Shown here in pieces: positions 14,692-28,758 of a stretch of 64,000 nt of DNA. This DNA is from Alphaproteobacteria bacterium. Its GTDB lineage: Bacteria; Pseudomonadota; Alphaproteobacteria; MPNO01; UBA830. Made by a program: the position numbers and the translations under genes. The notes beneath the pieces are model-generated. The model made no database searches. It saw only the letters and a program-made list of their open reading frames with translations, and had not been told where the DNA came from. The stretch covers positions 598,994 through 662,993 of the forward strand of contig OZ244055.1 of assembly GCA_965214975.1 (NCBI GenBank). The letters are read 5' to 3'. How positions within the stretch are numbered: the stretch's first letter is position 1; each line of letters begins with the position of its first letter.

Positions 14692-15560
14692 GGCGCCGTC
14701 TCCCCGCGGGCCCGCTCGACGGCCGCCCCGAGGGCGCGGCGCGCCAGAACCTCCGCGAGATGGCGCCGGTAGTCGGCCGAGCCGTGAAGGTCGTCCATGG
14801 GTTCCGCGGCGTCCCGCGCGGCGGCGGCGGCGGCGGCGACCGCGTCCGGCTCCGGCGGGTTGCCGGCGAGGAGTCTCTCGGCCTCCGCCGCCCTGAGCGG
14901 CGTGCCGTGGACGCCGAGCAGCGCGAGCCGGGCCATCGACACCGAGCCGCCGTCGAGCGCGACCAGGGCCGCCGCGCCCGCGACCGCGAAGTCGCCCCGC
15001 CGCCGCGCGACCTCCTCGAAGCCCCAGCCGGTGCCCGGCGGCAGGCCCGGCAAGGTCACCGACACCGCCATCTCGTCGTCGCCGAGCGCGTTCGCCAGAG
15101 GGCCGGCGAAGAACCCGCCGGCCTCGAGCGCGCGTCCGCCCGAGGGGCTCGCGGTCTCGATCACGGCGTCGAGGAGAACCGACATGGCCGGCAGTTCGGC
15201 CGCGGGGTCGGCGTGGCAGAGACTGCCGCCGAAGGTGCCCCGGTTGCGGACGGCGAGATGGGCGACGTGGCGCATCGCGGCGGCGACCACCGGAAACCGC
15301 TCGCGGACCGCGTCCGACGTCTCGACCCGGTGATGGCGGGCGAGCGCGCCGATGCGCAGCCCGCCGCCCTCCTCGGCGATGCCGTCGAGCCCCTCGATGC
15401 CGTTGACGTCGACGAAGGTCGCCGCGTCGACGAGACGGAAGTTGAGCATCGGGACCAGGCTCTGGCCGCCGGCCAGGATCCGGGCGCCGCCCCCGGCAAG
15501 GGCGTCCACCGCGTCGCCGACCGTGGCGGCGCGGACGTAGTCGAACGGGGCGGGCTTCAT
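14688..15560 (-). CDS. FAD-binding medium subunit of the molybdenum hydroxylase (CoxM-like).
   Basis: MKPAPFDYVRAATVGDAVDAL...LAGGQSLVPMLNFRL...AVRNRGTFGGSLCHADPAAELPA is the FAD-binding PCMH domain. I chose the internal ATG at 15560, which has a spacing typical of operon genes. Confidence 0.8.
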   Translation of the reverse strand: MKPAPFDYVRAATVGDAVDALAGGGARILAGGQSLVPMLNFRLVDAATFVDVNGIEGLDGIAEEGGGLRIGALARHHRVETSDAVRERFPVVAAAMRHVAHLAVRNRGTFGGSLCHADPAAELPAMSVLLDAVIETASPSGGRALEAGGFFAGPLANALGDDEMAVSVTLPGLPPGTGWGFEEVARRRGDFAVAGAAALVALDGGSVSMARLALLGVHGTPLRAAEAERLLAGNPPEPDAVAAAAAAARDAAEPMDDLHGSADYRRHLAEVLARRALGAAVERARGETAP

Positions 15561-15573
15561 CGGAGGCGGAACG

Positions 15574-16506
15574 TCAGCCGCGCTGGATGCCGTCGTAGAG
15601 CAGCGCCTCGCCCATGCCTTCGGCAAGGCACCATTCGGCGAAGTTCTCCGGAGTCGTTTCCCAGCTCGCCGCCTCCCACTCGTCGTCGACCACGTCGGAA
15701 TCGAAGTCGTACTCCGCGCCGCCGCCGCAGGGGTTGTGGAAGTACCAGAAGTAGCACGACGAGATCGGGTGGCGGCCCGGCCCGAGCATGGTCTTCCAGC
15801 CCTGCCGGGTCATGCGGTTGCCGCCGCCGAACAGCTCGTGGATCGTGCCGAGCTCGAACGCCGCGTGGTGGAAGCCGCGCTTGCCGGAGCCGGGGTCGAG
15901 CAGGAAGAGGTTGTGGTGGTGGTGCGCGGCGCCGCACCGCGCGAAATACCCCCTTCCGGGATACATGTCCGTGACCTTGAAGCCGAGCCGGTCGACGTAG
16001 AACTCCTTCTGGGCCTCGAGCTCGTCGGTCACGTAGACGACATGGGAGATCTCAAGGGGCCGCGCCCTGTCGATTCTGCGGGCCCGCCTGTTCACGCGCG
16101 TCGCCCGGCCGGGCACGTTGATTTCCTGCTCGGGCGGCGCCACCGGGCGGTTCCGGGTGACGCGGAAGCCGAGGCCGAAGCCGAGCGGGTCGGCGGCGTG
16201 GAGGCCGCCCTCGCCGTCCCGGCGCACCTCGCGGTCCGCGGAAAGCGCCTCTTCCAGCGCGTCGAGGTCGCTTTCGGAGCGCACGCCGAACACGGTCTCG
16301 CGGAGCGTGGCGCCGGCGTCCTCGCCCACCGGCGGCGGGAGCGCGGGGTCGTCCGCCGGGCGCAGCTCGACCACGGCGCCGTTGGCGGCGGCGTAGGAGG
16401 GGAGGCCGCCTTCCGCGCGCTCGAGGCCGAAATCCTCCCAGAACCTCGCCCCCTCCGCAGGGTCGCGCACCCCGTAGACCAGCTTGTCGATTCCGGTGTG
16501 GTTCAT
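15574..16506 (-). CDS. Two-domain VOC-family extradiol ring-cleavage dioxygenase (catechol 2,3-dioxygenase-like).
   Basis: The 310-aa product has two glyoxalase/VOC modules; YFARCGAAHHHHNLFLL resembles the extradiol dioxygenase active-site segment. It is the first gene of the operon with coxMSL-like and the MFS gene. Confidence 0.7.
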   Translation of the reverse strand: MNHTGIDKLVYGVRDPAEGARFWEDFGLERAEGGLPSYAAANGAVVELRPADDPALPPPVGEDAGATLRETVFGVRSESDLDALEEALSADREVRRDGEGGLHAADPLGFGLGFRVTRNRPVAPPEQEINVPGRATRVNRRARRIDRARPLEISHVVYVTDELEAQKEFYVDRLGFKVTDMYPGRGYFARCGAAHHHHNLFLLDPGSGKRGFHHAAFELGTIHELFGGGNRMTRQGWKTMLGPGRHPISSCYFWYFHNPCGGGAEYDFDSDVVDDEWEAASWETTPENFAEWCLAEGMGEALLYDGIQRG

Positions 16507-16583
16507 GCCGGTTCCTCCTCTTCCGCCCCGGGCGCCAACCTACCGCGTCGGCGCCCGGGATCCAACGGCCGGCGGGCCGGAGG

Positions 16584-18092
16584 TCACCACAGCGCGGCGA
16601 TGCCGGCGGCGACGGCGGCGGCGCCCGCGATCCACCATGCGCCGCCGCGCCCGGCACGGCGTTCCTCCGGCCCTGCCGGCGGGGTGCGGGCGGGGGTCCG
16701 GCCGGCGTCGCCGGCCGCCGCGCGCTCGAGCCGGGCCGGGAAGCGCTCGAGAGCGTCGAGGAGGCCGTCGACGGTCTCGCGCATGCGCGCCTCCGGCGCG
16801 GTCGCGGAGCGCATCCACGAATCGACGAGCGGCCGCGCGAGCTCCCACATGTTGACCCCCGGGCACAGGCTCCGCCCGACCCCCTCGGCCACGAGCATCG
16901 TCTTCTGCAGGAGCAGGAGCTGGGGCTGGGTCTGCATGTCGAACCGGCGCGTGACGGCGAACAGCTGGCTGAGCAGGCGGGCGAGCGAGATCTCCCCGAG
17001 CGGCAGGCCGAGGATCGGCTCGGCGATCGCCCGCGCGGCCTGCGCGAACTCGGCCGTCGAATGGTGCGCCGGCACGTAGCCGGCGCGCAGGTGGACCCGT
17101 GCGACGCGGTCGTAGTCTCCCGAGAGGAATCCGTGCAGCATCTCGGCGAGATACCGTCGCGTGGACGGGTCGAGCCGGCCCATGATCCCGAAATCCACCG
17201 CATGGACCGTGCCGTCGCCGTCGACGAACAGGTTGCCGGGATGCAGGTCGGCGTGGAAGAAGCCGTCGCGGAACACCTGCAGGAAGAACGTCTGGGCGAG
17301 GCCGGCGACGATCGCCTCGCGGTCGGCGTCCTCGCCGAGCCGGTCGATCGGCGCGGCGTCGATCCAGCGCATGGTGAGCACCCTCCGCCCCGTGCGCTGC
17401 CAGTCGATCGCCGGGACAGAGAAACGCGGCTCGTCGGCGAGGTTGGCCCGAAGCTCGTCGGCCGCGGCCCCCTCGAGGCGGAGGTCGGTCTCCATCTCGA
17501 CCGACCGGGCGATGGTGCGCACGCACTCCACGGGACGCAGGCGACGGGACGCGGGAAGATGGCGCTCGACCAGGCGGGCGAACCAGAGGGCGAGATCGAT
17601 GTCGCGCGCGAACGCCTCCTCGATCCCGGGTCGGAGGATCTTGACCGCGACGTCGGTTCCGTCCGCGGCCGTCGCGCGGTGGACCTGCGCGATCGACGCC
17701 GCCGCGACGGCCTCGTCCCCGAATTCCGCGAACAGCTCTCCGGCCGGCCGGCCGAACTCCCTCTCGATGACGGCGCGCGCCCCGGCGCCCGGGAAGGACG
17801 GCATCTCGTCCTGCAGCGCCGCGAGATCGTCGGCGATGCGCTCGCCCACGAGGTCCGGACGGACCGACAGCGCCTGGCCGATCTTCACGAAACCCGGGCC
17901 GAGCGCCGTCAGGGCCATGCCCAGCCGTTCGCCCGGGCGTCTTCCGGCGACGCCGCGGACGGGCGGAGCGAGCAGCGCCCATGCCGCCGCGCGCAGGAGC
18001 GCGCCCGGCGCGCCGAGCCGCTCGAGCGCGAACGCGGCGTCGTGCCGGGCCAGGGCGCGGAAGACCGCGACCGTCCGCATCAGCTGTCTCAT
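16584..18092 (-). CDS. ubiB: Ubiquinone biosynthesis protein kinase UbiB (AarF/ABC1 family).
   Basis: ASIAQVHRA...VAVKILRPG...HADLHPGNLFV is ABC1 kinase-like; 502 aa, immediately downstream of ubiE. Confidence 0.9.
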   Translation of the reverse strand: MRQLMRTVAVFRALARHDAAFALERLGAPGALLRAAAWALLAPPVRGVAGRRPGERLGMALTALGPGFVKIGQALSVRPDLVGERIADDLAALQDEMPSFPGAGARAVIEREFGRPAGELFAEFGDEAVAAASIAQVHRATAADGTDVAVKILRPGIEEAFARDIDLALWFARLVERHLPASRRLRPVECVRTIARSVEMETDLRLEGAAADELRANLADEPRFSVPAIDWQRTGRRVLTMRWIDAAPIDRLGEDADREAIVAGLAQTFFLQVFRDGFFHADLHPGNLFVDGDGTVHAVDFGIMGRLDPSTRRYLAEMLHGFLSGDYDRVARVHLRAGYVPAHHSTAEFAQAARAIAEPILGLPLGEISLARLLSQLFAVTRRFDMQTQPQLLLLQKTMLVAEGVGRSLCPGVNMWELARPLVDSWMRSATAPEARMRETVDGLLDALERFPARLERAAAGDAGRTPARTPPAGPEERRAGRGGAWWIAGAAAVAAGIAALW

Positions 18093-18141
18093 CGGGCGGC
18101 CCCTCGGCGGCGTCCGCGGGGCGGCGGCGCGCCCGCCGGGC

Positions 18142-18882
18142 CTAGGTCACGCGCCATGCGGAGTGGATGCGGACGATGCCGCCCGAAAGCGGCATGTGGG
18201 TGACGTTGCCGAACCCGGCGTCGCGGAGATCGGCGGCCAGACGCTCCGGTCCCGGAAACGCGCGGACGCTTTCCGCGAGATAGCGGTAGGCGTCGCGGTC
18301 GCCGGCGACGAGGCCGCCGAGTCTCGGCAGCGCGCCGAAGCTGTAGGCGTCGTAGAGCGGCTTGAGAAGCGGCAGCACGGAAGGGCTGAACTCGAGGCAG
18401 AGGAAGTGTCCGCCGACGACCAGGACGCGCCGCGTCTCCGAGAGCGCGTCCGTCCGTCCGGCCACGTTGCGCAGCCCGAAGGAGATGGTGCAGACGTCGG
18501 CGCAGCGGTCGCCGAGCGGCAGGGCCCGCGCGTCGCCGCAGACCCGCGGCGGGCCGTGGAGAACGCCCCGGTCGAGGCGGCGGTCGGCGCCTGTCCGGAG
18601 CATGCGCTCGTTGACGTCGCACAGCACGGCCTCGCCGCCGCGGGCCATGAACGCCGAGGCGACGTCGCCGGTTCCGCCCGCGACGTCGATCAGCCGCCTG
18701 CCGGCGCGGGGGTCGGCGCGGTCGACGAGCACCGACTTCCAGAACCGGTGGAGACCTCCCGACATCAGGTCGTTCATGAGGTCGTAGCGGTCCGCCACGC
18801 TGTCGAACACGCGCCCGACGAGGCCGGCATGCTCCGCCCGGGACACCTCGCGGAATCCGAAACGCGCGCGATCTTCCTCCAT
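18142..18882 (-). CDS. ubiE: Ubiquinone/menaquinone biosynthesis C-methyltransferase UbiE.
   Basis: MEEDRARFGFREV...VFDSVADRYDLMNDLMSGGLHRFWK...LIDVAGGTGD is a UbiE signature. I used the ATG at 18882; the ORF-track N-terminal extension is junk. Confidence 0.85.
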   Translation of the reverse strand: MEEDRARFGFREVSRAEHAGLVGRVFDSVADRYDLMNDLMSGGLHRFWKSVLVDRADPRAGRRLIDVAGGTGDVASAFMARGGEAVLCDVNERMLRTGADRRLDRGVLHGPPRVCGDARALPLGDRCADVCTISFGLRNVAGRTDALSETRRVLVVGGHFLCLEFSPSVLPLLKPLYDAYSFGALPRLGGLVAGDRDAYRYLAESVRAFPGPERLAADLRDAGFGNVTHMPLSGGIVRIHSAWRVT

Positions 18883-19157
18883 GCCGGCGAGGATAGCGCG
18901 GGAGGCGTTCTGCGGCCAGCCCGGAGTTCCCGCGCGGCCGGCGCGCGCGGGAATCCGGAAACCGTCATGTTCCGTGGAATCAACAGGCTGCGGAACGCGG
19001 GGCGGAACGCCTTCCGGCCGCGGCCCGCCGCCGGCGGCGTTCGCGGGAGGCGGCGACCGGCCCGCCAGGCCGGCCTCCGGCCGCATCCGGCCCGAAAACC
19101 TGCTACTCTCCCGCCGGTCGGACGAGCGAACGCGGGACAGGCCGGCGGGGTTGGCGC

Positions 19158-19991
19158 ATGCCCGAACTTCCCGAGGTGGAGACGGTCCGGAGGGGGCTGG
19201 CGGCGGTTCTCGAGGGCCGCCGGATCGAGAGCGTGGAGGTGCGCCGCCGCGATCTCAGGGTTCCGGTCCCGGAAGACTTCGCCGAGCGGCTTCGCGGGCG
19301 GACGCTGACCAGCCTCGGCCGGCGCGCCAAGTACCTCGTGGGCCGGTTCGACGACGACACCGTGCTGCTCGCCCATCTCGGCATGTCCGGCCGCATGCTC
19401 GTCGACCGGACGGGCGAGGGGGCCCGGGGCGGCCATGCCGCCCACGTGCATGTCGTCCTGGAGGCCGGAAACGGCACCACGGTCCGGTTCTCCGATCCGC
19501 GGCGTTTCGGCCTGATGACGCTCACCGACCGTTCCGGGCTTCCGGATCATCCGCTGCTTCGCGGTCTCGGGCCGGAACCTCTGTCGGAGAGCTTCACCGG
19601 GCCCGTGCTGGCGGCCCGGCTCGACGGCCGGCGGAGTTCGGTCAAGGCGGCCCTGCTCGACCAGAAGGTCGTGGCCGGCGTCGGCAACATCTACGCCTGC
19701 GAGGCGTTGCACGTCGCCGGGCTGTCGCCGCGCCGCAGGGCGGCGGGCGTGCGCGGGCGGCGCGCGGACCGTCTGGCGGGCGCCGTCCGCTCCGTTCTGG
19801 AGGACGCGATCGCGGCCGGAGGGTCGTCGCTTCGCGACCACGTGGCGCCGGACGGCGAGCTCGGCTATTTTCAGCACAACTTCAGGGTCTACGGCCGTGA
19901 CGGAAAACCATGCCCCGGCTGCGGCGCCGGCGTCAGGCGCATCACGCAGAGCGGGCGTTCGACGTACCACTGCCCGGCGTGCCAGAGATAG
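19158..19991 (+). CDS. mutM: Formamidopyrimidine-DNA glycosylase.
   Basis: MPELPEVETVRRGL (catalytic Pro2/Glu3), KYLVG..., and a C-terminal zinc finger CPGCG...YHCPACQ. It is divergent from ubiE. Confidence 0.9.
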   Translation: MPELPEVETVRRGLAAVLEGRRIESVEVRRRDLRVPVPEDFAERLRGRTLTSLGRRAKYLVGRFDDDTVLLAHLGMSGRMLVDRTGEGARGGHAAHVHVVLEAGNGTTVRFSDPRRFGLMTLTDRSGLPDHPLLRGLGPEPLSESFTGPVLAARLDGRRSSVKAALLDQKVVAGVGNIYACEALHVAGLSPRRRAAGVRGRRADRLAGAVRSVLEDAIAAGGSSLRDHVAPDGELGYFQHNFRVYGRDGKPCPGCGAGVRRITQSGRSTYHCPACQR

Positions 19992-20358
19992 CCTCGCGGG
20001 GCGGCGGCTCGCGCCGTTCGCGGCGGTCGTCGCGCTGTCGCTGCACGCGTCCCCCGCCCCGGCGCAGACCGTCTTCTTCTCGATGATCGACGATCTCCCC
20101 GTGGCCGAGGGGCTTGCCGAGGATCCGGAGAGGGGGTTCGAGTTCGACAGCGTTCACGGCAGCATCGTCACCGCATGCGCGGGCGGCCGCGTCTCGACCG
20201 CCGACGTCCGCCGTTTCTACAGGCGGGTTCTGCCGGCTCTGGGGTGGCAGCCGCGGGGCGGGGGTTACGGACGCGACGAGGAGCGCCTGGCCATGAGCGT
20301 CGAGAGCCGCGGCGGGCTGGTGACGGCCTGCTTTCGCCTGTCCGCCGGACCGTCGTGA
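19897..20358 (+). CDS. Hypothetical secreted protein; start uncertain.
   Basis: The ORF starts at GTG inside the mutM 3' end. It encodes a signal-peptide-like stretch RRLAPFAAVVALSLHASPAPAQ followed by a small non-repetitive domain. No ATG/GTG/TTG lies between the mutM stop and the hydrophobic segment, so either it overlaps mutM by ~95 nt or the true product is shorter, starting at MIDDLP (~20083). Confidence 0.3.
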   Translation: MTENHAPAAAPASGASRRAGVRRTTARRARDSLAGRRLAPFAAVVALSLHASPAPAQTVFFSMIDDLPVAEGLAEDPERGFEFDSVHGSIVTACAGGRVSTADVRRFYRRVLPALGWQPRGGGYGRDEERLAMSVESRGGLVTACFRLSAGPS

Positions 20359-20392
20359 CGGCCGGCCTCCCGCCGGCCGGAGGGGCGGCCGG

Positions 20393-22030
20393 ATGACTGG
20401 CGCCGCGCGGATGACCGGAGGCGCGGCGATCGTCGACGCGCTCGCGCGGCACGGCGTCGAGGTCGCGTTCGGCATCCCCGGCGTTCAGCTCGACCCCTTG
20501 TTCGCCGCCCTTCACGACGCCCGCGACCGCATCCGGATCGTCCACACGCGCCACGAGCAGGGGGCTGGGTACATGGCGCTCGGCTACGCCATGGCGACGG
20601 GCAGGCCGGGAACCGCGATCGTGGTTCCCGGGCCGGGCCTCCTCAACGCCTCGTCCGCGATCGCCACCGGCTACGCCGTCAACGCGCCGCTTCTGTGCGT
20701 TGCCGGGCAGATCCCCTCGCGCCTGATCGGCAGGGGAACGGGGCAGCTTCACGAGATTCCCGACCAGCTCGCTCTCGCCAGGGGGCTGACCAAGTGGGCC
20801 GCCCGCATGGACGCCCCGGGCGACGCCCCGGCGGTCGTCGGAGAGGCCTTCCGCCGCCTCGCCGGCGGACGCCGCCGTCCGGTGGTCGTCGAGATGGCGA
20901 TGGACGTGATGGCGGCCGAGGGCGAGGTGCGGCCCCTCGACCCCGCGCCGGCGGAGGCGCCTCCGGCGCCGGATCCGGATTCCGTCGAAGCCGCCGCGAG
21001 ACTCCTCGGCTCCGCCGAAAGGCCGCTCATCGTCGCCGGAGGCGGCGCCGTCGATGCCGGCGAGGGACTGGTCCTGCTCGCGGAGATGCTGCAGGCTCCG
21101 GTGGTCCTGACCCGGGGCGCTCTCGGAACGGTGAGCGCCCGCCATCCCCTGGCCTTCACGCCGCCGTTCGGCCATCGGCTGTGGCGGGACGCGGATGCCG
21201 TGCTCGGAGTCGGGACGCGGCTGGTGCCGATGATCCCGGGCTGGGGAGTCGACGACGCGCTGAAGGTGGTCCGTCTCGACATCGATGCGGCGGAGCTGTC
21301 CCGGAACCGCGCGCCGGATGCGGCGATTCACGCCGATGCGGCAGCCGGGCTGGCCGCGCTTCTCGAAACGCTGCCGGCGCACAACGCGGTCCGCGGCTCC
21401 CGCGCCGAGGAGCTTGCGGAGGTCAGGGCCGCCCTCGACGCCGAGTTCGCGAAGCTCGATCCGCAGGTGCCGATCCTCCGCGCCATCCGCCGGGCGCTTC
21501 CCGAGGACGGGATCTTCGTCGAGGAGCTGACGCAGCCGGGGTACGTCGCGAGGCTGGTCTTTCCGGTCTACGAGCCGCGCACCTACATCCATCCCGGATA
21601 CCAGGGGACGCTGGGCTACGCCGCCCCCACCGCGATGGGCGCGAAGGTGGGGCGTCCGGACCGCAAGGTGCTGGCGATTTCGGGGGACGGCGGCTTCATG
21701 TTCAACGTCCAGGAACTGGCGACCGCCGCGCAGCACGGCATCGACGTCGTGCTGGTGGTCTTCAACGACGGCGCCTACGGCAACGTCAAGCGTTTCCAGC
21801 GGCAGCTGTTCGGCGGCAGGGAGATCGCCGTCGATCTGAGGAATCCGGATTTCATGAAACTCGCCGAGGCGTTCGGCATCCAGGGGCTTCGCGCCCGCAC
21901 GCCGGGCGAACTGGAGCGGGCCATCGTCGAGGGCTTCGGCACCGCGGGACCGACGCTGATCGAGTATCCGATCGGGGAGGTTCCGGATCCGTGGCATCTG
22001 GTCCAGCCCGGAAAGGTGCGTGGAACCTGA
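20393..22030 (+). CDS. Thiamine-pyrophosphate-dependent enzyme (acetolactate synthase / benzoylformate decarboxylase family).
   Basis: 545 aa with the N-terminal Pyr domain (AIVDALARHGVEVAFGIPG...), the central domain, and the C-terminal PP domain (LAISGDGGFMFNVQELATA...NDGAYG). Confidence 0.85.
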   Translation: MTGAARMTGGAAIVDALARHGVEVAFGIPGVQLDPLFAALHDARDRIRIVHTRHEQGAGYMALGYAMATGRPGTAIVVPGPGLLNASSAIATGYAVNAPLLCVAGQIPSRLIGRGTGQLHEIPDQLALARGLTKWAARMDAPGDAPAVVGEAFRRLAGGRRRPVVVEMAMDVMAAEGEVRPLDPAPAEAPPAPDPDSVEAAARLLGSAERPLIVAGGGAVDAGEGLVLLAEMLQAPVVLTRGALGTVSARHPLAFTPPFGHRLWRDADAVLGVGTRLVPMIPGWGVDDALKVVRLDIDAAELSRNRAPDAAIHADAAAGLAALLETLPAHNAVRGSRAEELAEVRAALDAEFAKLDPQVPILRAIRRALPEDGIFVEELTQPGYVARLVFPVYEPRTYIHPGYQGTLGYAAPTAMGAKVGRPDRKVLAISGDGGFMFNVQELATAAQHGIDVVLVVFNDGAYGNVKRFQRQLFGGREIAVDLRNPDFMKLAEAFGIQGLRARTPGELERAIVEGFGTAGPTLIEYPIGEVPDPWHLVQPGKVRGT

Positions 22031-22290
22031 TTCCGCCGGGCGGCGGGACGGGGGTCGCCGGAGCCCGGAGCGTCAGGGCGACCGCCGGGCCGCCGCAGCC
22101 GGCGCGGGGCTCGCGGATCCGGGCGCCGCGGGCGGAGTCGGGTTCGACCGCGACAGCTCCGGGACGGCGAGGCGGCCTCGGCAACGCTGCCGCAGAGGGC
22201 GCCGACACCCGGGCGACACCTCCCGTCGATATTCTCTTCCGCGCCGCCCCGCTCACCTGCCCTCGAAAGGATTGAGCAGCTTGACTCATC
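20568..22290. repeat. Direct repeat copy 1 (~1.72 kb), near-identical to 24570-26285.
   Basis: Direct comparison of the two stretches: only a handful of substitutions (giving A/T, V/I, E/G, G/D, K/R protein differences) and one 1-nt indel near 22262. Copy 1 ends at ...gcagcttgac, immediately followed by the AT-richer IS left end. Confidence 0.9.
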
Positions 22291-22477
22291 TTCGACAGTT
22301 CGAGGGCTGACTTGACGCTCCCGGGACGGGGAAGTCCTGCATTTCAGGGCTTTTCCGCCCCGTCCCGGTGCCGGATTCCAGAAAAAGTGGTGCCACCCTG
22401 CGCTTGAAAGATTCGGACAATACACAATTTTAATGCTCCCTTTCGTGAGAACACTTGGCAGGATGAGTGGTGTCCCA

Positions 22478-23361
22478 ATGGAGGCCACCATGTTCTGCCG
22501 CACCAAGGTCAGCGGTTCCAACACGTACCTCCGGATCGTCGAGAACCGCCGCGAGGGCGGGAAAGTCCGCCAGCGCGTCATCGCGACCCTCGGGCGCCTC
22601 GACCATCTCCAGGCCAGCGGCGCCCTCGACCGCCTGCTCCAGTCCGCCTGCCGCTTCTCCGAACAGCTCGTCGCGCTCGCCGCGCGGCCCGGCGACGGCA
22701 ACGGCGAGGACGGTGCCGTCGTACGCCATGTCGGACTCGCGCTGGCGTTCGAAAGCCTGTGGCGTGCCAGCGGCTGCCGGGAGATCGCGCGGGAGCCGCT
22801 TGGCGGGCGGCGCTTCCGGTTCGACGTCGAGCGCGCGGTCTTCGCCAGCGTGCTCCACCGCATCATGGTCTCGGGCTCCGTCCGCGCGGCCCGCGCGTGG
22901 ATGCGCGACCAGGCCATCGACGGGACGGCGGGGCTCGACCTCCAGCACCCGTGCCGGGCGATGGCGTGGCTGGGAGAGGCGCTGCCGGACGCCGGCCAGC
23001 GTCACTCCACCCATGCGCCGCGCTGCGTGAAGGACGTGTTCGAGGAGGCGCTATTCGCGCGCGAGCGGGATCTGTTCACCGGGCTCGACCTGGTGTTCTT
23101 CGACACCACGTCGCCGCACTTCACCGGCCGGGGCGGCGAGACGATCGGACGCCGCGGGCGCTCGAAGGACCGCCGTGCCGCCAGATGGTTCCGGGGCTGG
23201 TGCTGGATCGGGACGGACGTCCGGTCAGGGCGCGAAAAAGAGCTCGATGGCCTCGTCGCCGCCGCCCACAACGCGATGGCCGAGACCATGAACGAAGGCC
23301 CGGCGTGAGCGATTCCTTTGCCGGATTGCGTGAGCACGGCATCCCGACTATCAAGCCATGA
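22478..23361 (+). pseudogene. IS1634-family transposase, frameshifted and 3'-truncated.
   Basis: MEATMFCRTKVSGSNTYLRIVENRREGGKVRQRVIATLGRLD matches the IS1634/ISNCY-type transposase N-terminus. The conserved SKDHRPDLKQ...GL..DRDG.P segment is split between frame 22433 (GRSKDRRAAR) and frame 22759 (QMVPGLVLDRDGRPV), which indicates a frameshift near 23150-23200. The reading frame stops at 23361 at about half the expected length. Confidence 0.7.
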
Positions 23362-23438
23362 CAGTGCGCCTGCCCTTCGGGCGCGACCTTGTCCTGCGGA
23401 CGGCTTCCAGTTTCGAGCCGTGGACCGATGGCGGAGCT

Positions 23439-24323
23439 TCCATGGCTTGGCTGTTCTTCATCGACGAGAGCGGGCACGACCACAAGCACATGCCCTACGA
23501 GGTGCGCGGCGGCTTCGCGATCCATGTGAGCCAACTCTGGCCGTTCGTGCAGGCGATGCAGGATTTGGAGACCGATTGCTTCGGTTGCCGGCTCGGCGAT
23601 GTTGGCAAGGAGATCAAGGGCTCGACCCTGATCGACCGCAAACGCTTTGCGTTTGCGGTCCAAGGCGAGCCGTTTCCCGACCGGGAGCGGCGGGAACTCT
23701 GCCGATCCTTTCTCGCGCAGAGCCGCACCGGAAACACGCCGGGGCGGGACATGTTCACCGCCTACGGCCAGGCCTGCCTGCGCATGGCTCGGGAAATCAT
23801 CGCGCTTCTGAAGCGAAGCGGCGCCGTCCTGATGGCAGCCGCCATCCCGCGCGGCATCGCAAGGCCGCGGGACACCCGGTTCAACGATTATCTACGCAAG
23901 GACGTGGTGTTCCTGTTCGAGCGGTTCTTCTATTTCCTGGAGAGGAAGCGGGAGCACGGCGTGCTGGTCATGGACGAGACCGACAAGCGGGAGGACCGCC
24001 GCTTCGTCGTCAGAATGGAGAGGTATTTCACGCGAACAGCCACGGGACGGTACCGGACGGCGTGGATCGTGCCGACGCCGTTCTTCGTCTCATCTGACAT
24101 GGCCCGCGCCGTGCAGGCAGCGGATCTGTGCATCTACGCCGTCAACTGGGGCTTCCGCTTACCCGGTCGGGGCATGGACGCGCCGCGCCGTGACGAGATC
24201 GCCGAGATGTTCGGGGCGGATCTGGCCGATCTCCAGTATCGCGGCCAGGGTGTCCGCGACGGTCGAGTGTTCGACAGCTATGGGATCATCTATGTCCCCG
24301 ATCCCTACGATTCACGAGCCTGA
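23439..24323 (+). CDS. DUF3800-like protein.
   Basis: MAWLFFIDESGH (the N-terminal h-h-DESG motif) and a C-terminal SSDMARAVQAADLCIYA (the conserved Q..AD motif), in a ~294-aa product. Its GC is lower than neighbouring genes. I chose the internal ATG at 23439 because the protein family begins at the DESG motif. Confidence 0.6.
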   Translation, partial: SMAWLFFIDESGHDHKHMPYEVRGGFAIHVSQLWPFVQAMQDLETDCFGCRLGDVGKEIKGSTLIDRKRFAFAVQGEPFPDRERRELCRSFLAQSRTGNTPGRDMFTAYGQACLRMAREIIALLKRSGAVLMAAAIPRGIARPRDTRFNDYLRKDVVFLFERFFYFLERKREHGVLVMDETDKREDRRFVVRMERYFTRTATGRYRTAWIVPTPFFVSSDMARAVQAADLCIYAVNWGFRLPGRGMDAPRRDEIAEMFGADLADLQYRGQGVRDGRVFDSYGIIYVPDPYDSRA

Positions 24324-24569
24324 TCACCAAAGGCGAAGCGTGAAAAAGGAGGTAACGCCCCGTCGCTCAATCCCGCGCACCGAGGTGGCGAGTTTCATAC
24401 GGGGCCGAACCTCCACGGGCGAATGTGGCCCGCAATCCGGCGAAAGTCAAGCTTCTGTCCTGGTTCAGGACATATGAGTCGGCGGAGGTTCTTCGGCTGT
24501 CAGGTTGGCAAGGTAGTCTGCGGGGGTTCGTCCGCCAAGGGCTTGGTGCGGTCAGAAGGCGTTGAACTC

Positions 24570-26285
24570 GGTACATGGCGCTCGGCTACGCCATGGCGAC
24601 GGGCAGGCCGGGAACCGCGATCGTGGTTCCCGGGCCGGGCCTCCTCAACGCCTCGTCCGCGATCGCCACCGGCTACACGGTCAACGCGCCGCTTCTGTGC
24701 GTTGCCGGGCAGATCCCCTCGCGCCTGATCGGCAGGGGGACGGGACAGCTTCACGAGATTCCCGACCAGCTCGCTCTCGCCAGGGGGCTGACCAAGTGGG
24801 CCGCCCGCATGGACGCCCCGGGCGACGCCCCGGCGATCGTCGGAGAGGCCTTCCGCCGCCTCGCCGGCGGACGCCGCCGTCCGGTGGTCGTCGAGATGGC
24901 GATGGACGTGATGGCGGCCGAGGGCGAGGTGCGGCCCCTCGACCCCGCGCCGGCGGAGGCGCCTCCGGCGCCGGATCCGGATTCCGTCGAAGCCGCCGCG
25001 AGACTCCTCGGCTCCGCCGAAAGGCCGCTCATCGTCGCCGGAGGCGGCGCCGTCGATGCCGGCGAGGGACTGGTCCTGCTCGCGGAGATGCTGCAGGCTC
25101 CGGTGGTCCTGACCCGGGGCGCTCTCGGAACGGTGAGCGCCCGCCATCCCCTGGCCTTCACGCCGCCGTTCGGCCATCGGCTGTGGCGGGACGCGGATGC
25201 CGTGCTCGGAGTCGGGACGCGGCTGGTGCCGATGATCCCGGGCTGGGGAGTCGACGACGCGCTGAAGGTGGTCCGTCTCGACATCGATGCGGCGGAGCTG
25301 TCCCGGAACCGCGCGCCGGATGCGGCGATTCACGCCGATGCGGCGGCCGGGCTGGCCGCGCTTCTCGAAACGCTGCCGGCGCACAACGCGGTCCGCGGCT
25401 CCCGCGCCGGGGAGCTTGCGGAGGTCAGGGCCGCCCTCGACGCCGAGTTCGCGAAGCTCGATCCGCAGGTGCCGATCCTCCGCGCCATCCGCCGGGCGCT
25501 TCCCGAGGACGGGATCTTCGTCGAGGAGCTGACGCAGCCGGGGTACGTCGCGAGGCTGGTCTTTCCGGTCTACGAGCCGCGCACCTACATCCATCCCGGA
25601 TACCAGGGGACGCTGGGCTACGCCGCCCCCACCGCGATGGGCGCGAAGGTGGGGCGTCCGGACCGCAAGGTGCTGGCGATTTCGGGGGACGGCGGCTTCA
25701 TGTTCAACGTCCAGGAGCTGGCGACCGCCGCGCAGCACGGCATCGACGTCGTGCTGGTGGTCTTCAACGACGGCGCCTACGGCAACGTCAAGCGTTTCCA
25801 GCGGCAGCTGTTCGGCGGCAGGGAGATCGCCGTCGATCTGAGGAATCCGGATTTCATGAAACTCGCCGAGGCGTTCGGCATCCAGGGGCTTCGCGCCCGC
25901 ACGCCGGACGAACTCGAGCGGGCCGTCGCCGAGGGTTTCGGAACCGCGGGACCGACGCTGATCGAGTATCCGATCGGGGAGGTTCCGGATCCGTGGCATC
26001 TGGTCCAGCCCGGAAGGGTCCGCGGAACCTGATTCCGCCGGGCGGCGGGACGGGGGTCGCCGGAGCCCGGAGCGTCAGGGCGACCGCCGGGCCGCCGCAG
26101 CCGGCGCGGGGCTCGCGGATCTGGGCGCCGCGGGCGGAGTCGGGTTCGACCGCGACGGCTCCGGGACGGCGAGGCGGCCTCGGCAACGCTGCCGCAGAGG
26201 GCGCCGACACCCGGGCGACACCTCCCGTCGATATTCTCTTCCGCGCCGCCCCGCTCACCGCCCTCGAACGGATTGAGCAGCTTGA
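24570..26285. repeat. Direct repeat copy 2 (~1.72 kb).
   Basis: It starts at ggtacatggcgctcggctacgcc and matches 20568-22290. It ends at ...gcagcttgac, followed by an 18-bp tandem duplication (ttgacatcgagtttccgg twice) and then unique vapC sequence. Confidence 0.9.
24575..26032 (+). pseudogene. N-terminally truncated duplicate of the TPP-dependent enzyme gene (codons 61-545 only).
   Basis: MALGYAMATGRPGTAIVVPG... is identical to residues 61 onward of the 20393..22030 product apart from five substitutions. It lacks the first 60 codons (the start of the Pyr domain) and any native upstream region. An ATG exists at the internal Met, so expression cannot be excluded. Confidence 0.6.
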
Positions 26286-26679
26286 CATCGAGTTTCCGGT
26301 TGACATCGAGTTTCCGGAAGTCCCGAACGTTCCGCGTCGCGACCGTCAACCGGTGGACTCTCGCAGTGGCTGCGATCATGGCGTCCTCGAGCAGGGTATC
26401 CGACTTGCGGTGCTTGAGACGCGCCCACTCCCGGAAAGACGCCGTGTCCATCGCAAGGATGCCGTAGCTGTCGACTATCCGGTCGAGCCAGAACGCGAGT
26501 TCTTCCGCCTTCGCCACGTCCTGCTTGCGCGTCGCTTCGATACCGGCCTGGATTTCGCCGACCGTGACGGCCGACAGGAACAGTCGATCGGCGGGAACCC
26601 CTTCGATCCACTTCAAAACCCTCTTGTGGGGCCGGGGACGGCGGAGCTCCGGGACGACGTTGGTGTCCAACAGGTACAC
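25777..26679 (-). CDS. vapC: PIN-domain toxin VapC, with an aberrant C-terminal read-through. The PIN core is about 26270..26679.
   Basis: MYLLDTNVVPELRRPRPH...LSAVTVGEIQAGIE...TRNVRDFRKLDV is a VapC PIN domain with a GTG start. The expected end KLLNPFEGR* is replaced by RKLDVN-RKLDV (an 18-bp tandem duplication) and a 1-nt indel that removes the stop. The ORF therefore runs ~165 extra codons into the antisense of repeat copy 2. Confidence 0.65.
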   Translation of the reverse strand: MYLLDTNVVPELRRPRPHKRVLKWIEGVPADRLFLSAVTVGEIQAGIEATRKQDVAKAEELAFWLDRIVDSYGILAMDTASFREWARLKHRKSDTLLEDAMIAATARVHRLTVATRNVRDFRKLDVNRKLDVKLLNPFEGGERGGAEENIDGRCRPGVGALCGSVAEAASPSRSRRGRTRLRPRRPDPRAPRRLRRPGGRPDAPGSGDPRPAARRNQVPRTLPGWTRCHGSGTSPIGYSISVGPAVPKPSATARSSSSGVRARSPWMPNASASFMKSGFLRSTAISLPPNSCRWKRLTLP

Positions 26680-26686
26680 CGCCGTC

Positions 26687-26947
26687 CTATTCGAGGGCTG
26701 ATGCCGGACGGGAACGGTGCTGCGAGCGAGGCGGCGCGAGCGCCTCGATGCGGGGTTCCGGCGCGAGCAGCATCTCCTTCAGATCAGGTTGCGCTGTTTC
26801 CCGCAACCTCCGCCACTGCCCGATCGGCAACAGCACCGCCGCCTCGACGCCACGCCTGGTCACGATCTGCGGCCCCTCGTTGATGCTCGCTTCAAGGAAC
26901 TCGCCGAATCGGGCCTTCGCTTCCTGCACCTGCCATGACCTGCCCAT
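26687..26947 (-). CDS. Phd/YefM-type antitoxin (VapB partner).
   Basis: MGRSWQVQEAKARFGEFLEASINEGPQIVTRRGVEAAVLLPIGQWRRL is the Phd/YefM fold, 86 aa, ending 8 nt before the vapC start. An alternative ATG lies at 26980. Confidence 0.7.
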   Translation of the reverse strand: MGRSWQVQEAKARFGEFLEASINEGPQIVTRRGVEAAVLLPIGQWRRLRETAQPDLKEMLLAPEPRIEALAPPRSQHRSRPASALE

Positions 26948-27411
26948 GATTTTCTCCGCGTCAAGGTGCTGACCATTCATACAACCCTCCGGGATCGGGT
27001 GCAAGCCGGCGCCGAATCCGCGGAACCGGGGTGCCCGGTCCGAACGCGCCCCAGACTCTTCATTTCGTGCAACTGCCCGGGTGCCCCATCTCCGGTGACG
27101 GCGTGCCGGCAACTGTCGCCACGGAGGCGGCGTCCGCTCGCCTGTTGGCATTACAGCCTTGAGGGTTCAAGGTTCGCTCCGGTGCGGGACAGGAGTGTCC
27201 CACGCTCCCCGATTGCGGCCGATTCCGGTCGATCCGAGCCGCGTCCGGGCGTCGCGGCTGGCGCGCGACGGTCCGTTTCGCGGGTTCGCGGTCTTCTTTC
27301 GGGGCGGGATTCGGGTTCGGAGGCGCCGGATGCCGCTGCCGGCGGACCGGCGGCGTGGCGGCAGCGCCCCGCCTCCCGGATGGCTCTCGATGCAGACGGA
27401 ATGAGGAGGCA

Positions 27412-28758
27412 TCAGCGCAACCGTCGCCTGGCACAGGTCATGCGGGGGCGCGGTCGGTCTCCCACTCGACCAGGAGCTTCTGGACGCCGCGGAACGTGAG
27501 CGTCGGCAGATAGCGCCAGGGCCTGTCCCTCGACCAGCCTCATGTGCGGCAGACGGCGGGTCAGTTCCTCGAGGATGACGCGCATCTCGAGGCGGGCCAG
27601 AGGCGCTCCCATGCAGAAATGCGCCCCGTTCCCGAAGGCGAGATGCCGCTTGGCGTTGGCGCGCCCGACATCGAACGTCCCGCCGTCGGGAAAAACCGCG
27701 TCGTCGCGGTTTCCCGAACCCAGAAGGAGAAGAATCCGGGAGCCGGCCGGAACCGGCGTGCCGGCGATTTCCGCGTCGCGGGTCGCGATGCGCCGCCAGG
27801 TGAATATCGAAGTGTCGAAGCGCAGGATCTCCTCCACGGCGTTCGGGATCAGCCCGGGGTCGTCGCACAGCCTCTCCCATTGCGCACGGTCGCCCAGAAG
27901 GGCTTTCAGGCCGTTGGCCGAGGCCTGGGTCGTCGTCTCGTGCCCGGCGAACTGCATGAGAAACATGACGTTGCGGAGATAGTTGACCGTGAAACGGGAC
28001 GGCTCCTCGCGATGCAGGCGGACCATGTCCCCGAGATAGTTGTCGCCGGGCTCCTCCAGCGCGGCGTCGACCAGTTCCCTGGTGAACGCCCAATGCGCGC
28101 CCATGTCCTTCATCATCTCGACCTGTTCGTCCTCGTCGGGCCTGCCCCAGTTCACGATCGCCCGCGTCGAGCCGAGGCGCTTGACGAGAACGGCGTCGTC
28201 GTCCCGCGCGCCGAGAAAGATGAAGATCGCGAGCGCGGGCACCTCGTAGAGCATCTGGGACACGAGCTCCGCGTGCCCGTCGTCCGCGAACCGGTCGATG
28301 TAGCGGGTCACGATGGCGCGGATGCGGGGCTCGATCTCGTTGACCCGTCTGGGCGTGAACGCGTCGCCGAAAATCTTCCGGTGGGCCAGGTGGGTTCCCG
28401 GCTCCTCGTCGACCAGGGACGGCTCGATGGCGATGTCGAGGCTGTCCCGAACCGCCTCCGCCGCGGGGCAGAGCGGGGTCACCGGGTGGCGGGCGAGCGC
28501 CGGCGAGAAGGTTTCCGGATCGCGGAAGACCGAGACGATGTCCTCGTGCCGCGCGACGACCCAGTAGCCCGTTTCCGGGCTGTAGAAGACCGGCTCCTCG
28601 CGGCGCGCCCGCTCGAAGAAGGGGTAGGGGTCGTTCAAATAGGTCTCGGAGAACGGATGGAAATCGGCGCCGACGGCGCTGGCGGGGCAGCCGTTCCCGG
28701 CCGGCGCGGCATCGTCCGGACTCGACTGGAACATTCCCAGGGTCGTTCGCTCGGGCAT
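27412..28758 (-). CDS. Cytochrome P450, with an apparent frameshift in the last ~30 codons.
   Basis: EXXR (ETTTQ region), the heme loop FGNGAHFCMGAPLARLE, and LPHMRLVEGQ are all present. The ATG is at 28758. The canonical C-terminus WRYLPTLTFRGVQKLLVEWETDRAPA* lies in the +1 frame and ends at 27438, whereas the annotated frame continues with R/P-rich junk to 27412. Confidence 0.8.
   Translation of the reverse strand: MPERTTLGMFQSSPDDAAPAGNGCPASAVGADFHPFSETYLNDPYPFFERARREEPVFYSPETGYWVVARHEDIVSVFRDPETFSPALARHPVTPLCPAAEAVRDSLDIAIEPSLVDEEPGTHLAHRKIFGDAFTPRRVNEIEPRIRAIVTRYIDRFADDGHAELVSQMLYEVPALAIFIFLGARDDDAVLVKRLGSTRAIVNWGRPDEDEQVEMMKDMGAHWAFTRELVDAALEEPGDNYLGDMVRLHREEPSRFTVNYLRNVMFLMQFAGHETTTQASANGLKALLGDRAQWERLCDDPGLIPNAVEEILRFDTSIFTWRRIATRDAEIAGTPVPAGSRILLLLGSGNRDDAVFPDGGTFDVGRANAKRHLAFGNGAHFCMGAPLARLEMRVILEELTRRLPHMRLVEGQALALSADAHVPRRPEAPGRVGDRPRPRMTCARRRLR

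What the first reader, a model, noticed from the sequence alone, without database searches (positions are those of the whole stretch)
20568..26320. 1.72-kb near-identical direct repeats bracket an IS1634-remnant + DUF3800 insertion, duplicating most of a TPP-enzyme gene and the tail of vapC
20568-22290 and 24570-26285 are >99% identical. Each runs from codon 61 of the TPP-enzyme gene to the last ~9 codons of the convergent vapC. Copy 1 is a complete gene with an intact vapC tail (KLLNPFEGR*) but is separated from the vapC body by the insertion. Copy 2 lacks the TPP N-terminus and abuts the vapC body. IS1634-family elements are known for unusually long, variable target-site duplications (tens to several hundred bp). 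A 1.7-kb duplication would be beyond the reported range, so this is either an extreme case, a duplication-insertion by another route, or an assembly artefact of a repeated region. The low divergence (five amino-acid changes and one indel) argues for a recent event.
Basis: partly seen in the sequence, partly recalled or inferred. Interest (0 to 1): 0.8.

Follow-up and report, generated by a model that had tools for sequence, protein, structure and literature searches.

The report
Gene duplication bridged by transposon debris
A 1.7-kb piece of an enzyme gene is present twice in this alphaproteobacterial chromosome, the copies joined by 2.3 kb of broken mobile-element DNA; it looks like an ordinary recombination scar between two strain variants, not a record-length target-site duplication.

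Summary
The repeat is real: 20568-22285 and 24570-26286 align over about 1720 bp with 21 mismatches and one indel. That is 98.7% identity, not >99%. The 2.28-kb insert is three fused fragments, not one IS:
- the 5' 940 bp of an IS1634-family element, whose genuine left inverted repeat abuts the vapC tail at 22284
- a 1.2-kb DUF3800 module that lies beside a MarR-HpaB operon in related genomes
- the last 111 bp of an IS481-family element, cut internally where copy 2 begins

There is no IS1634 right end, so the giant target-site-duplication idea fails. Two sister contigs show single-copy states: TPP-vapC uninterrupted (L082), and TPP with no vapBC at all (L081). The two copies differ from each other about as much as each differs from those other strains. 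Seven of the 22 differences are polymorphisms shared with one or other sister. The differences are clustered, and pN/pS is 0.26. The copies are therefore different population alleles, not a fresh in-situ duplicate.

The best reading is that two allelic versions of the locus were joined by one homologous and one illegitimate (GGT microhomology) crossover, one version already carrying vapC::IS1634 debris. Assembly error cannot be excluded without reads. Interest is low to moderate.

The parts
20393..22030 (+). Complete ThDP/TPP-dependent enzyme gene (545 aa, PRK08266 subfamily). Residues 1-60, including the HEQGAGY motif, are unique to this copy.
   Evidence: Pfam TPP_enzyme_N/M/C and NCBIfam NF006122 at 730 bits. 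100% match to P0001 on a 3.8-Mb contig.
20568..22285 (.). Repeat copy 1 (A): TPP codons about 59-545, the 228-bp spacer, and the last 8 codons plus stop of vapC.
   Evidence: Alignments.
22259..22285 (-). Orphan vapC tail (VKLLNPFEGR*) with a stop codon, cut off from the vapC body by the insert.
   Evidence: Sequence. Four-way alignment: the T at 22258 is unique to copy 1.
22284..23226 (+). 5' remnant (about 940 of about 2045 bp) of an IS1634-family element. The IRL ACTCATCTTCGACAGTT starts at 22284 (+/- 4 bp). Only the N-terminal third of the transposase is present.
   Evidence: 82-83% identity to full-length copies L088 2795-4838 and L089 2796-4842, whose two ends carry the same IR. 94.7% to L090. 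NF033559 positions 1-161 of 483. Plasmid IS1634 hits.
23229..24455 (+). DUF3800 module with an intact 293-aa gene at 23442-24323. In relatives it lies at the edge of an island next to MarR-HpaB.
   Evidence: Pfam PF12686. 92% DNA identity to L083-L086, L091 and L092, and 95% to L087.
24456..24566 (-). Terminal 111 bp of an IS481-family element: the IS end plus the last about 31 codons (FNAF*PHQALGGRTPADYL...HMS*) with an in-frame TGA. It is truncated internally at the junction with copy 2.
   Evidence: 13 JGI metagenome loci share the terminus, and homology runs 24456-24566. The homologous ORF in L103 hits rve_3 at 4.5e-15 and IS481 NF033577 at 2.6e-14. Weak direct hit to rve_3 at E 0.013.
24570..26286 (.). 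Repeat copy 2 (A'), contiguous with the vapC body exactly as in sister contig L082.
24575..26032 (+). Truncated TPP ORF (485 aa, from Met61). It is still open but lacks the N-terminal 60 residues.
   Evidence: Present as called protein P0121 in the source genome.
26255..26679 (-). vapC (PIN domain). Because of the missing T, the ORF has no stop here and continues to 25777 (300 aa).
   Evidence: Pfam PIN at 5.5e-17. ORF list. Same allele in L082.
26282..26317 (.). Perfect 18-bp tandem duplication (TTGACATCGAGTTTCCGG x2) inside vapC. It begins at the TTGAC where the IS1634 IRL abuts in copy 1.
   Evidence: TRF. Sequence. Also present in L082 (0 gaps).
26687..26950 (-). vapB antitoxin (Phd/YefM family).
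   Evidence: Pfam PF02604 at 1.6e-14; TIGR01552.

Best explanation
This is a real, strain-specific duplication-insertion scar made by recombination. It is not a transposition target-site duplication.

Shown:
- The ancestral locus was TPP gene -> <- vapC-vapB, as in sister contig L082.
- An IS1634-family element had transposed into the 3' end of vapC, leaving its left inverted repeat against the vapC tail at 22284.
- That element is now only a 940-bp stump fused to a DUF3800 module, and the module is followed by the last 111 bp of an IS481-family element.
- This debris is joined at an internal, non-terminal point to codon about 59-61 of a second TPP allele. Only a 3-bp GGT (or CT.GGT) overlap marks the junction.
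- The outer junctions (N-terminus to copy 1, and copy 2 to the vapC body) are seamless.
- The two copies carry different population alleles.

Inferred: two allelic versions of the locus were joined by one homologous crossover and one illegitimate, microhomology-mediated crossover. One version was intact TPP-vapBC. The other was already disrupted as TPP-vapC'::IS1634-stump-DUF3800-IS481. This resembles homology-facilitated illegitimate recombination of DNA from a closely related strain. Which version was resident and which was incoming is unresolved.

Consequence: copy 1 remains a complete enzyme gene. Copy 2 is a 5'-truncated, probably dead gene. vapC keeps its body but has no proper stop codon.
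For: - Repeat and gene content.
- The IS1634 IRL sits exactly at the A|insert junction, defined against two full-length relatives with matching IRs at both ends.
- The right junction lies inside an IS481-family terminus, with GGT microhomology.
- The IS1634-stump|DUF3800 fusion point recurs in L087 from another sample, where it continues into the MarR side. The debris was therefore assembled elsewhere or earlier.
- Single-copy ancestral states: L082 is N-A-V uninterrupted; L081 is TPP followed directly by the P450 gene.
- Allelic nature of the copies: site patterns c1c2|L081L082 = 9, c1L081|c2L082 = 5, c1L082|c2L081 = 2. By my count from the same table, c1-c2 distance is 22 against about 18-23 to the other strains.
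- pN/pS = 0.26, with fewer nonsynonymous changes than neutral expectation (binomial p = 0.006), although copy 2 lacks its N-terminus.
- Differences are clustered (9 in 116 bp, p about 2e-4).
- By my count from the positions, divergence from L081 is 0.27% just upstream (17.2-20.5 kb), 1.2% in copy 1 and 2.3% downstream, i.e. mosaic ancestry along the locus.
- The mechanism class is documented: one homologous end plus one illegitimate end (PMC3240628 abstract).
Against: - No donor-type contig (TPP-vapC tail-IS1634 stump without copy 2) was found, and L087 ends 58 bp into the IS.
- Nine sites where both copies share a state against L081 and L082 show the copies are each other's closest relatives overall. 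This also fits an in-situ duplication later overwritten in tracts by recombination.
- Only two sister sequences were available.
- L087 is only 95% identical in the DUF3800 module, so it may come from a different species.
- No reads were available, so the physical reality of the structure is assumed from the 3.8-Mb contig length.
Confidence: 0.55

Rival explanations
1. In-situ origin. A large tandem duplication formed by illegitimate recombination between an IS481 copy somewhere downstream and TPP codon about 60 on sister chromosomes. An IS1634 then inserted into the vapC of the first copy. Homologous recombination between that IS1634 and an IS1634 stump next to DUF3800 deleted most of the first copy, leaving A-debris-A'. 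The sequence differences arose later through gene conversion or imports from other strains.
For: Nine sites unite the two copies against both sister strains. The right junction is a microhomology join of the kind that founds tandem duplications. Another IS1634 copy exists in the same genome (P0364), giving a substrate for IS-IS recombination. The population is visibly recombinogenic: mismatches against L081 are mosaic and clustered.
Against: It needs at least three structural events plus several later allelic imports. No second DUF3800/IS481/IS1634 copy lies within the 37 kb downstream that the window covers. It also does not by itself predict pN/pS of 0.26 for a truncated copy.
Confidence: 0.15
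2. Assembly artefact. Two co-existing strain variants of the locus, one intact and one rearranged, were threaded in series through shared or IS sequence, so no single molecule carries both copies.
For: The copies look like two strain alleles. All sister material found is metagenomic. IS1634 is multi-copy.
Against: Both novel junctions (vapC tail|IRL and IS481 fragment|TPP codon about 60) must exist in real molecules. The vapC tail left of the IRL already implies part of the duplication on one molecule. The contig is 3.8 Mb, which suggests long reads that would span a 6-kb structure. No Ns or breaks occur in the region.
Confidence: 0.12
3. Campbell-type integration. A circular intermediate carrying the debris plus one copy of segment A (for example an excised or IS-generated circle from a related cell) integrated by a single homologous crossover within A, which automatically produces A-insert-A'.
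For: The topology (direct repeats of the homologous segment, seamless outer junctions) is exactly what single-crossover integration produces. The allelic difference between the copies fits a foreign circle.
Against: No replication, integrase or circle-forming function lies in the 2.28-kb insert: the IS1634 and IS481 pieces are both dead stumps and DUF3800 has no such annotation. The circle would still need the same illegitimate IS481|TPP junction to have formed first. A single crossover would leave each copy a donor/recipient chimera around one switch point, whereas the site patterns conflict in several separate blocks.
Confidence: 0.08
4. One reading: an IS1634-family element inserted with staggered cuts at least 1.7 kb apart, creating a giant target-site duplication, and then decayed.
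For: A genuine IS1634-family IRL lies exactly at the end of copy 1. Two members of the family (IS1549, IS1634) are reported to make variable direct repeats of 8-514 bp by an unknown mechanism (PMC2266710).
Against: - There is no IRR at the other boundary, which is an internal point of an IS481-family fragment.
- The IS is fused to a DUF3800 module at a point shared with a contig from another sample that has a different right-hand context.
- 1718 bp is more than 3 times the reported maximum, and the family norm is 5-6 bp (6 bp in Geobacillus).
- Two full-length relatives of this very element show no long flanking repeat.
- The copies differ by pre-existing population polymorphisms, not new mutations.
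Confidence: 0.04

Closest known systems
Homology-facilitated illegitimate recombination (one-sided homologous integration of related DNA; Acinetobacter, S. pneumoniae, P. stutzeri, E. coli conjugation)
   Same: One side is joined seamlessly through homology. The other is joined at a 3-5 bp microhomology between unrelated sequences (IS481 fragment vs TPP codon about 60). The two homologous segments carry different alleles, and the extra DNA is brought in as a passenger.
   Different: The outcome here duplicates 1.7 kb of the anchor region rather than replacing or deleting recipient DNA. No donor genome was identified, and DNA uptake in this uncultured alphaproteobacterium is unknown. Direction (which allele was resident) is unresolved.
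Long variable target-site duplications of IS1634 / IS1549 (8-514 bp)
   Same: An IS1634-family left end sits precisely at the inner edge of one copy of a direct repeat.
   Different: No right end. The 'element' is a three-part mosaic. The repeat is more than 3 times the longest reported, and the copies are allelic rather than identical by descent in situ.
Campbell-type (single-crossover) insertion-duplication
   Same: The A-insert-A topology with intact outer junctions.
   Different: No evidence for a circular, replicating or integrating entity, and the insert consists of dead IS stumps plus one DUF3800 gene.
IS-mediated tandem amplification (unequal crossover between flanking IS copies)
   Same: IS sequence lies between two direct copies of a chromosomal segment.
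   Different: That mechanism leaves the same IS at the outer borders as well. Here both outer borders are IS-free and continuous with the unique gene sequence.

Membership tests
IS1634-type target-site duplication | Left inverted repeat of the IS directly abuts one copy of the repeat | tested here: met
   The IRL ACTCATCTTCGACAGTT at 22284 aligns with both ends of the full-length relatives L088 and L089.
IS1634-type target-site duplication | Right inverted repeat of the same IS directly abuts the other copy | tested here: not met
   The reverse complement of 24548-24566 matches the IR at 6 of 19 positions (my count from the sequences). The sequence there is an internal part of an IS481-family terminus.
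IS1634-type target-site duplication | DNA between the repeats is one contiguous element | tested here: not met
   There are three unrelated segments, with breakpoints at about 23226/23229 and 24455/24456.
IS1634-type target-site duplication | Repeat length within the family's range (5-6 bp typical; 8-514 bp for IS1549/IS1634) | tested here: not met
   1718 bp against the range in PMC2266710. The relatives L088 and L089 have no long flanking repeats.
IS1634-type target-site duplication | Copies identical at birth, so differences should be scattered new mutations unique to one copy | tested here: not met
   7 of 22 differences are shared with other strains. Differences are clustered. pN/pS is 0.26.
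IS1634 family element (the stump itself) | Transposase homologous to the IS1634 family; terminal IRs shared with full-length copies | tested here: met
   NF033559 at E 1.2e-17, positions 1-161 of 483; the score is below the full-length cutoff because the ORF is truncated. Plasmid IS1634 transposase hits. 82-95% DNA identity to full-length copies with DDE_Tnp_1.
IS481 family element (right-hand stump) | rve-type DDE transposase C-terminus followed by the element terminus | tested here: met
   The direct hit is weak (rve_3 E 0.013). The 111 bp is homologous end-to-end to 13 metagenomic copies, and the L103 ORF scores rve_3 at 4.5e-15 and IS481 at 2.6e-14. Only the last about 31 codons are present.
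Homology-facilitated illegitimate recombination | One seamless homologous junction plus one junction at short microhomology between non-homologous DNA | tested here: met
   N-A and A'-vapC are continuous, as in L081 and L082. The IS481|TPP join shares only GGT (CT.GGT).
Homology-facilitated illegitimate recombination | Incoming DNA derives from a different (related) genome | tested here: inconclusive
   The copies carry different population alleles. However, they also share 9 states against both sisters, and no donor contig was found.
Homology-facilitated illegitimate recombination | DNA uptake/transfer route (competence, conjugation, GTA) | not testable with these tools
   Only 64 kb of the genome is available, and this is an experimental question.
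IS-flanked tandem amplification / composite transposon | Copies of the same IS at both outer borders of the duplicated unit | tested here: not met
   No IS lies at 20565 or 26287, and the window contains no other copy of either IS.
VapBC type II toxin-antitoxin | PIN-domain toxin immediately downstream of a small antitoxin gene | tested here: met
   PIN at 5.5e-17 and PhdYeFM at 1.6e-14, adjacent on the minus strand. The toxin ORF lacks its normal stop. Activity was not tested.
ThDP-dependent enzyme (PRK08266 subfamily) | All three TPP_enzyme domains (N/PYR, M, C/PP) | tested here: met
   Copy 1 has all three. Copy 2 retains only profile positions 54-118 of the N domain and starts after the HEQGAGY motif, so it fails this criterion.

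The most novel reading that the evidence does not exclude
An IS1634-family element really did generate a kilobase-scale (at least 1.7 kb) target duplication. That would be more than three times the 514-bp record for this family, whose long-repeat mechanism is unexplained. Its 3' part and right end were later replaced by DUF3800/IS481 debris, and the two copies were subsequently overwritten in tracts by recombination with other strains.
Probability: 0.04. Interest if true: 0.6.

Novelty: new member of a known kind. Interest (0 to 1): 0.25.

Why it matters
It matters mainly as a cautionary, well-resolved example. A direct repeat that ends exactly at an IS inverted repeat looks like a giant target-site duplication, but comparison with sister strains shows a layered recombination scar joining two alleles.

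For annotation, the second TPP ORF (called as a 485-aa protein in the source genome) is a truncated relic. The vapC next to it has lost its stop codon.

For population genomics, the locus shows that the vapBC cassette, the IS insertions and the 4-kb duplication are all segregating variants in this uncultured alphaproteobacterial lineage. It also gives a candidate natural example of one-sided homologous integration that duplicates rather than replaces DNA. It does not bear on any long-standing open question.

Tried and rejected
- Exact-sequence look-ups of the window's own TPP and DUF3800 ORFs and of P0001 returned nothing. The source contig is not in that index.
- The genome-contig scan with the TPP protein found no species-level relative. 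The best was L063 at 83% aa, syntenic only up to the end of the TPP gene.
- The metagenome scan for the vapC-tail 25-mer gave 0 hits.
- DNA and tblastn searches of PLSDB with the 111-bp fragment or its peptide gave nothing useful. Direct Pfam/NCBIfam hits were only marginal. Its identity was settled only through the metagenomic copies.
- PADLOC found nothing for DUF3800 or vapC.
- I looked for target-site duplications around the full-length IS1634 relatives: no long repeats and no convincing short ones.
- I considered whether the 18-bp tandem duplication in vapC is an excision footprint of the IS. Rejected, because the IRL in copy 1 abuts the start of the first unit, not the end, and the duplication is also present in L082.
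- I considered a cryptic IS1634 right end at the end of copy 2. About 9 of 19 positions match by eye, which is not convincing.
- I considered unequal crossover between flanking IS copies and a composite transposon. Rejected because the outer borders are IS-free.
- tblastx of the MarR-HpaB context (L091) against the window showed no synteny, so the native DUF3800 neighbourhood is not within these 64 kb.

Full report
**Observation**

The two segments are real direct repeats. A local alignment pairs 20565-22285 with 24567-26286: 1720 aligned positions, 21 mismatches and one 1-bp indel. A self-BLAST of the whole window reports 98.72% identity over 1721 columns and finds no other long near-identical repeat. 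Uninterrupted identity starts at 20568/24570 (GGTACATGG) and ends at 22285/26286 (…GCAGCTTGAC). The period is 4002 bp.

- A complete ThDP-dependent enzyme gene at 20393-22030 (all three TPP_enzyme domains; NCBIfam PRK08266, 730 bits).
- A 5'-truncated copy at 24575-26032, beginning at Met61.
- An IS1634 transposase N-terminal third.
- A DUF3800 ORF.
- A convergent PIN-domain vapC with a Phd/YefM vapB.

- Identity is 98.7-98.8%, not >99%.
- The reading frames differ at 16 codons with 7 amino-acid changes, not five.
- The vapC stop codon (EGR*) is present only in the orphan tail of copy 1. The tail attached to the vapC body lacks one T, so that ORF runs on for 300 aa.

**Anatomy of the 2.28-kb insert**

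The insert is three unrelated pieces.

1. 22284-~23226 is the 5' 940 bp of an IS1634-family element.
 - Two full-length relatives (L088 2795-4838 and L089 2796-4842, about 2045 bp, 82-83% identical to the window) define the ends. Both carry the inverted repeat ACTYRTCTTCGACAGTTTG at each end.
 - The window's ACTCATCTTCGACAGTT begins at 22284, exactly where the repeat ends. A few bases (TTGAC) are shared between the IS end and vapC, so the boundary is good to about ±4 bp.
 - A 94.7%-identical full-length copy exists in a sister sample (L090). Another copy exists in the source genome itself (P0364).
2. 23229-24455 is a DUF3800 module with an intact 293-aa gene.
 - In six other contigs it lies at the edge of a variable island immediately upstream of a MarR-HpaB aromatic-degradation operon, at 92% DNA identity.
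 - Contig L087 (95% identical) carries the same IS1634-stump|DUF3800 fusion point: its first 58 bp correspond to window 23171-23228. It then continues into the MarR side. That fusion was therefore not made at the TPP locus in the event that created the duplication.
3. 24456-24566, on the minus strand, is the last 111 bp of an IS481-family element.
 - Thirteen JGI metagenome loci share the terminus, and their homology to the window runs from 24456 up to the junction at 24566.
 - The corresponding ORF in L103 scores rve_3 at 4.5e-15 and IS481 NF033577 at 2.6e-14.
 - The window's peptide FNAF*PHQALGGRTPADYL…HMS* has an in-frame stop.
 - The junction with copy 2 therefore lies inside an IS, not at an IS end. 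The only overlap with the TPP sequence is GGT, or CT.GGT.

**Sister genomes**

The 90% cluster of the TPP protein contains the full and truncated copies from one 3.8-Mb contig, plus two other full-length proteins.
- Contig L081 (GCA_964347355.1) is 99.3% identical to window 12979-22160. It then jumps, after 107 bp, to window 27437 (the P450 gene). It has no vapBC, no insert and one TPP gene.
- Contig L082 (ERZ21849000) runs without interruption from the TPP N-terminus through segment A into the vapC body (to window 26448). It has the same 18-bp tandem duplication and the same missing-T allele as copy 2.

Relatives carry one TPP gene, not two paralogues. The vapBC cassette is itself an indel polymorphism. 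A more distant relative (L063, 83% aa) is syntenic only up to the end of the TPP gene.

**The copies are different alleles**

A four-way alignment of segment A gives these parsimony-informative site patterns:

| Grouping | Sites |
|---|---|
| c1+c2 vs L081+L082 | 9 |
| c1+L081 vs c2+L082 | 5 (a block at 21715-21934 plus 20743) |
| c1+L082 vs c2+L081 | 2 |

- Seven of the 22 differences between the copies are therefore polymorphisms that also segregate among other strains.
- By my count from the table, the c1-c2 distance (22) is about the same as each copy's distance to L081 or L082 (about 18-23).
- The differences are clustered: nine lie within 116 bp at 21906-22021. In a simulated scan, p is about 2e-4, with the window width chosen post hoc. 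There is also a 509-bp stretch with none (p about 0.012).
- Within the reading frame there are 10 synonymous and 7 nonsynonymous differences. pN/pS is 0.26, and a binomial test gives p = 0.006 for a nonsynonymous deficit.
- Copy 2 starts just after the HEQGAGY motif. By general knowledge of ThDP enzymes, that motif holds the cofactor-activating glutamate, so copy 2 should not be under such constraint.
- By my count from the positions, divergence from L081 changes along the locus: 0.27% at 17.2-20.5 kb, 1.2% in copy 1 and 2.3% in the P450 flank.

Together these say most differences arose while both sequences were parts of working genes in different genomes, or were imported from such genes. They are not post-duplication decay, so the 'recent event' inference does not hold.

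**Mechanism**

The topology A-insert-A' with seamless outer junctions excludes unequal crossover between flanking IS copies and composite transposition. It leaves four routes: a staggered-cut target duplication, Campbell-type integration, tandem duplication with later editing, or a one-homologous/one-illegitimate recombination.

The target-duplication model fails four of five defining tests:
- There is no IRR at the right boundary.
- The insert is a mosaic, not one element.
- The length is more than 3 times the 514-bp maximum, against a family norm of 5-6 bp (PMC2266710; 6 bp in Geobacillus, PMC8024623).
- The copies differ by population alleles, not by new mutations.

In addition, full-length relatives of this element show no long flanking repeats.

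The most economical account has two steps.
- In one lineage, an IS1634 element inserted into the vapC 3' end. Through IS-IS recombination or deletion it became linked to the DUF3800 module and an IS481 copy.
- DNA of that version and DNA of an intact TPP-vapBC version were then joined by a homologous crossover on one side and a microhomology join (IS481 interior to TPP codon about 60) on the other.

This pattern is described as homology-facilitated illegitimate recombination (PMC3240628). I cannot tell which version was resident. The junction anatomy, the single-copy sisters and the allelic nature of the copies are shown. The donor and the transfer step are inferred (confidence about 0.55).

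Rival explanations:
- In-situ large tandem duplication later collapsed through IS1634 copies and overwritten by imports (0.15). The nine c1=c2 sites favour it; the number of events needed counts against it.
- Assembly chimera of two strains (0.12). This is unlikely for a 3.8-Mb contig, and both novel junctions must be physically real, but it cannot be tested without reads.
- Campbell integration of a circle (0.08).
- Decayed giant TSD (0.04).

**Comparison with known systems, and novelty**

The parts are ordinary: an IS1634-family stump, an IS481-family stump, a DUF3800 gene of unknown function (no PADLOC hit), a VapBC cassette and a PRK08266-type ThDP enzyme. The event class, IS insertion plus homologous and illegitimate recombination giving a segmental duplication, is known. 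This is a new instance, not a new kind.

Its modest interest has two sources. It mimics a record-length IS1634 target duplication, and it may be a natural case of one-sided homologous integration that duplicates the anchor region. Interest score: 0.25.

Noticed in passing
window 22258 vs 26259/26260; ORF 26679->25777 (minus strand): The vapC that still has its body lacks the T that creates the stop codon, and sister contig L082 has the same allele. Its ORF therefore reads 300 aa antisense through the spacer and the TPP 3' end. Only the orphan tail in copy 1 ends properly (…NPFEGR*).
   Followed up: partly
window 26282-26317: A perfect 18-bp tandem duplication (TTGACATCGAGTTTCCGG x2) lies inside vapC and adds six residues (RKLDVN/RKLDVK). 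It is also present in L082. It begins with the same TTGAC at which the IS1634 inverted repeat abuts the vapC tail in copy 1.
   Followed up: partly
window 27195-27275; L090 2010-2090: An 81-bp segment upstream of vapB is 96% identical to the DNA that directly follows the right end of a full-length IS1634 copy in a sister-sample contig. The sequence on either side is unrelated. It may be a small repeated or target element, or a relic of another IS-mediated join.
   Followed up: no
window 22161-27436 vs L081 9192-9297: The whole vapBC cassette (about 1.27 kb without the duplication) is absent from sister MAG contig L081, which has 107 bp of unrelated sequence there. The toxin-antitoxin pair is therefore itself a segregating insertion between the TPP and P450 genes.
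   Followed up: partly
window 20566 and 24568: Copy 1 has T at 20566 where both sister strains have C. The same T occurs at the equivalent position of copy 2, which is probably IS481-derived sequence just outside the uninterrupted repeat. This may be a trace of conversion across the junction, or chance.
   Followed up: no
window 12015-15495 vs 50118-53621: A second, diverged (67-72% DNA identity) copy of part of the gene cluster upstream of ubiB is present about 38 kb away; in sister contig L081 the region aligned to both stretches carries Fer2 and FAD_binding_5 genes. This looks like an old paralogous cluster.
   Followed up: no
L083-L086, L091 (DUF3800 loci): In several long-read metagenome contigs the conserved 293-295-aa DUF3800 gene sits at the boundary between a variable island (RelE/HTH, SSB, YAcAr, IS3-family insertions) and a MarR-HpaB operon. 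This suggests it marks the edge of an integrative element.
   Followed up: no
L088, L089, L090: All three full-length relatives of this IS1634-family element encode the transposase as two consecutive ORFs (372+191, 373+191 and 257+327 aa) rather than one of about 550 aa. These may be frameshifted copies or a genuine two-ORF organisation.
   Followed up: no
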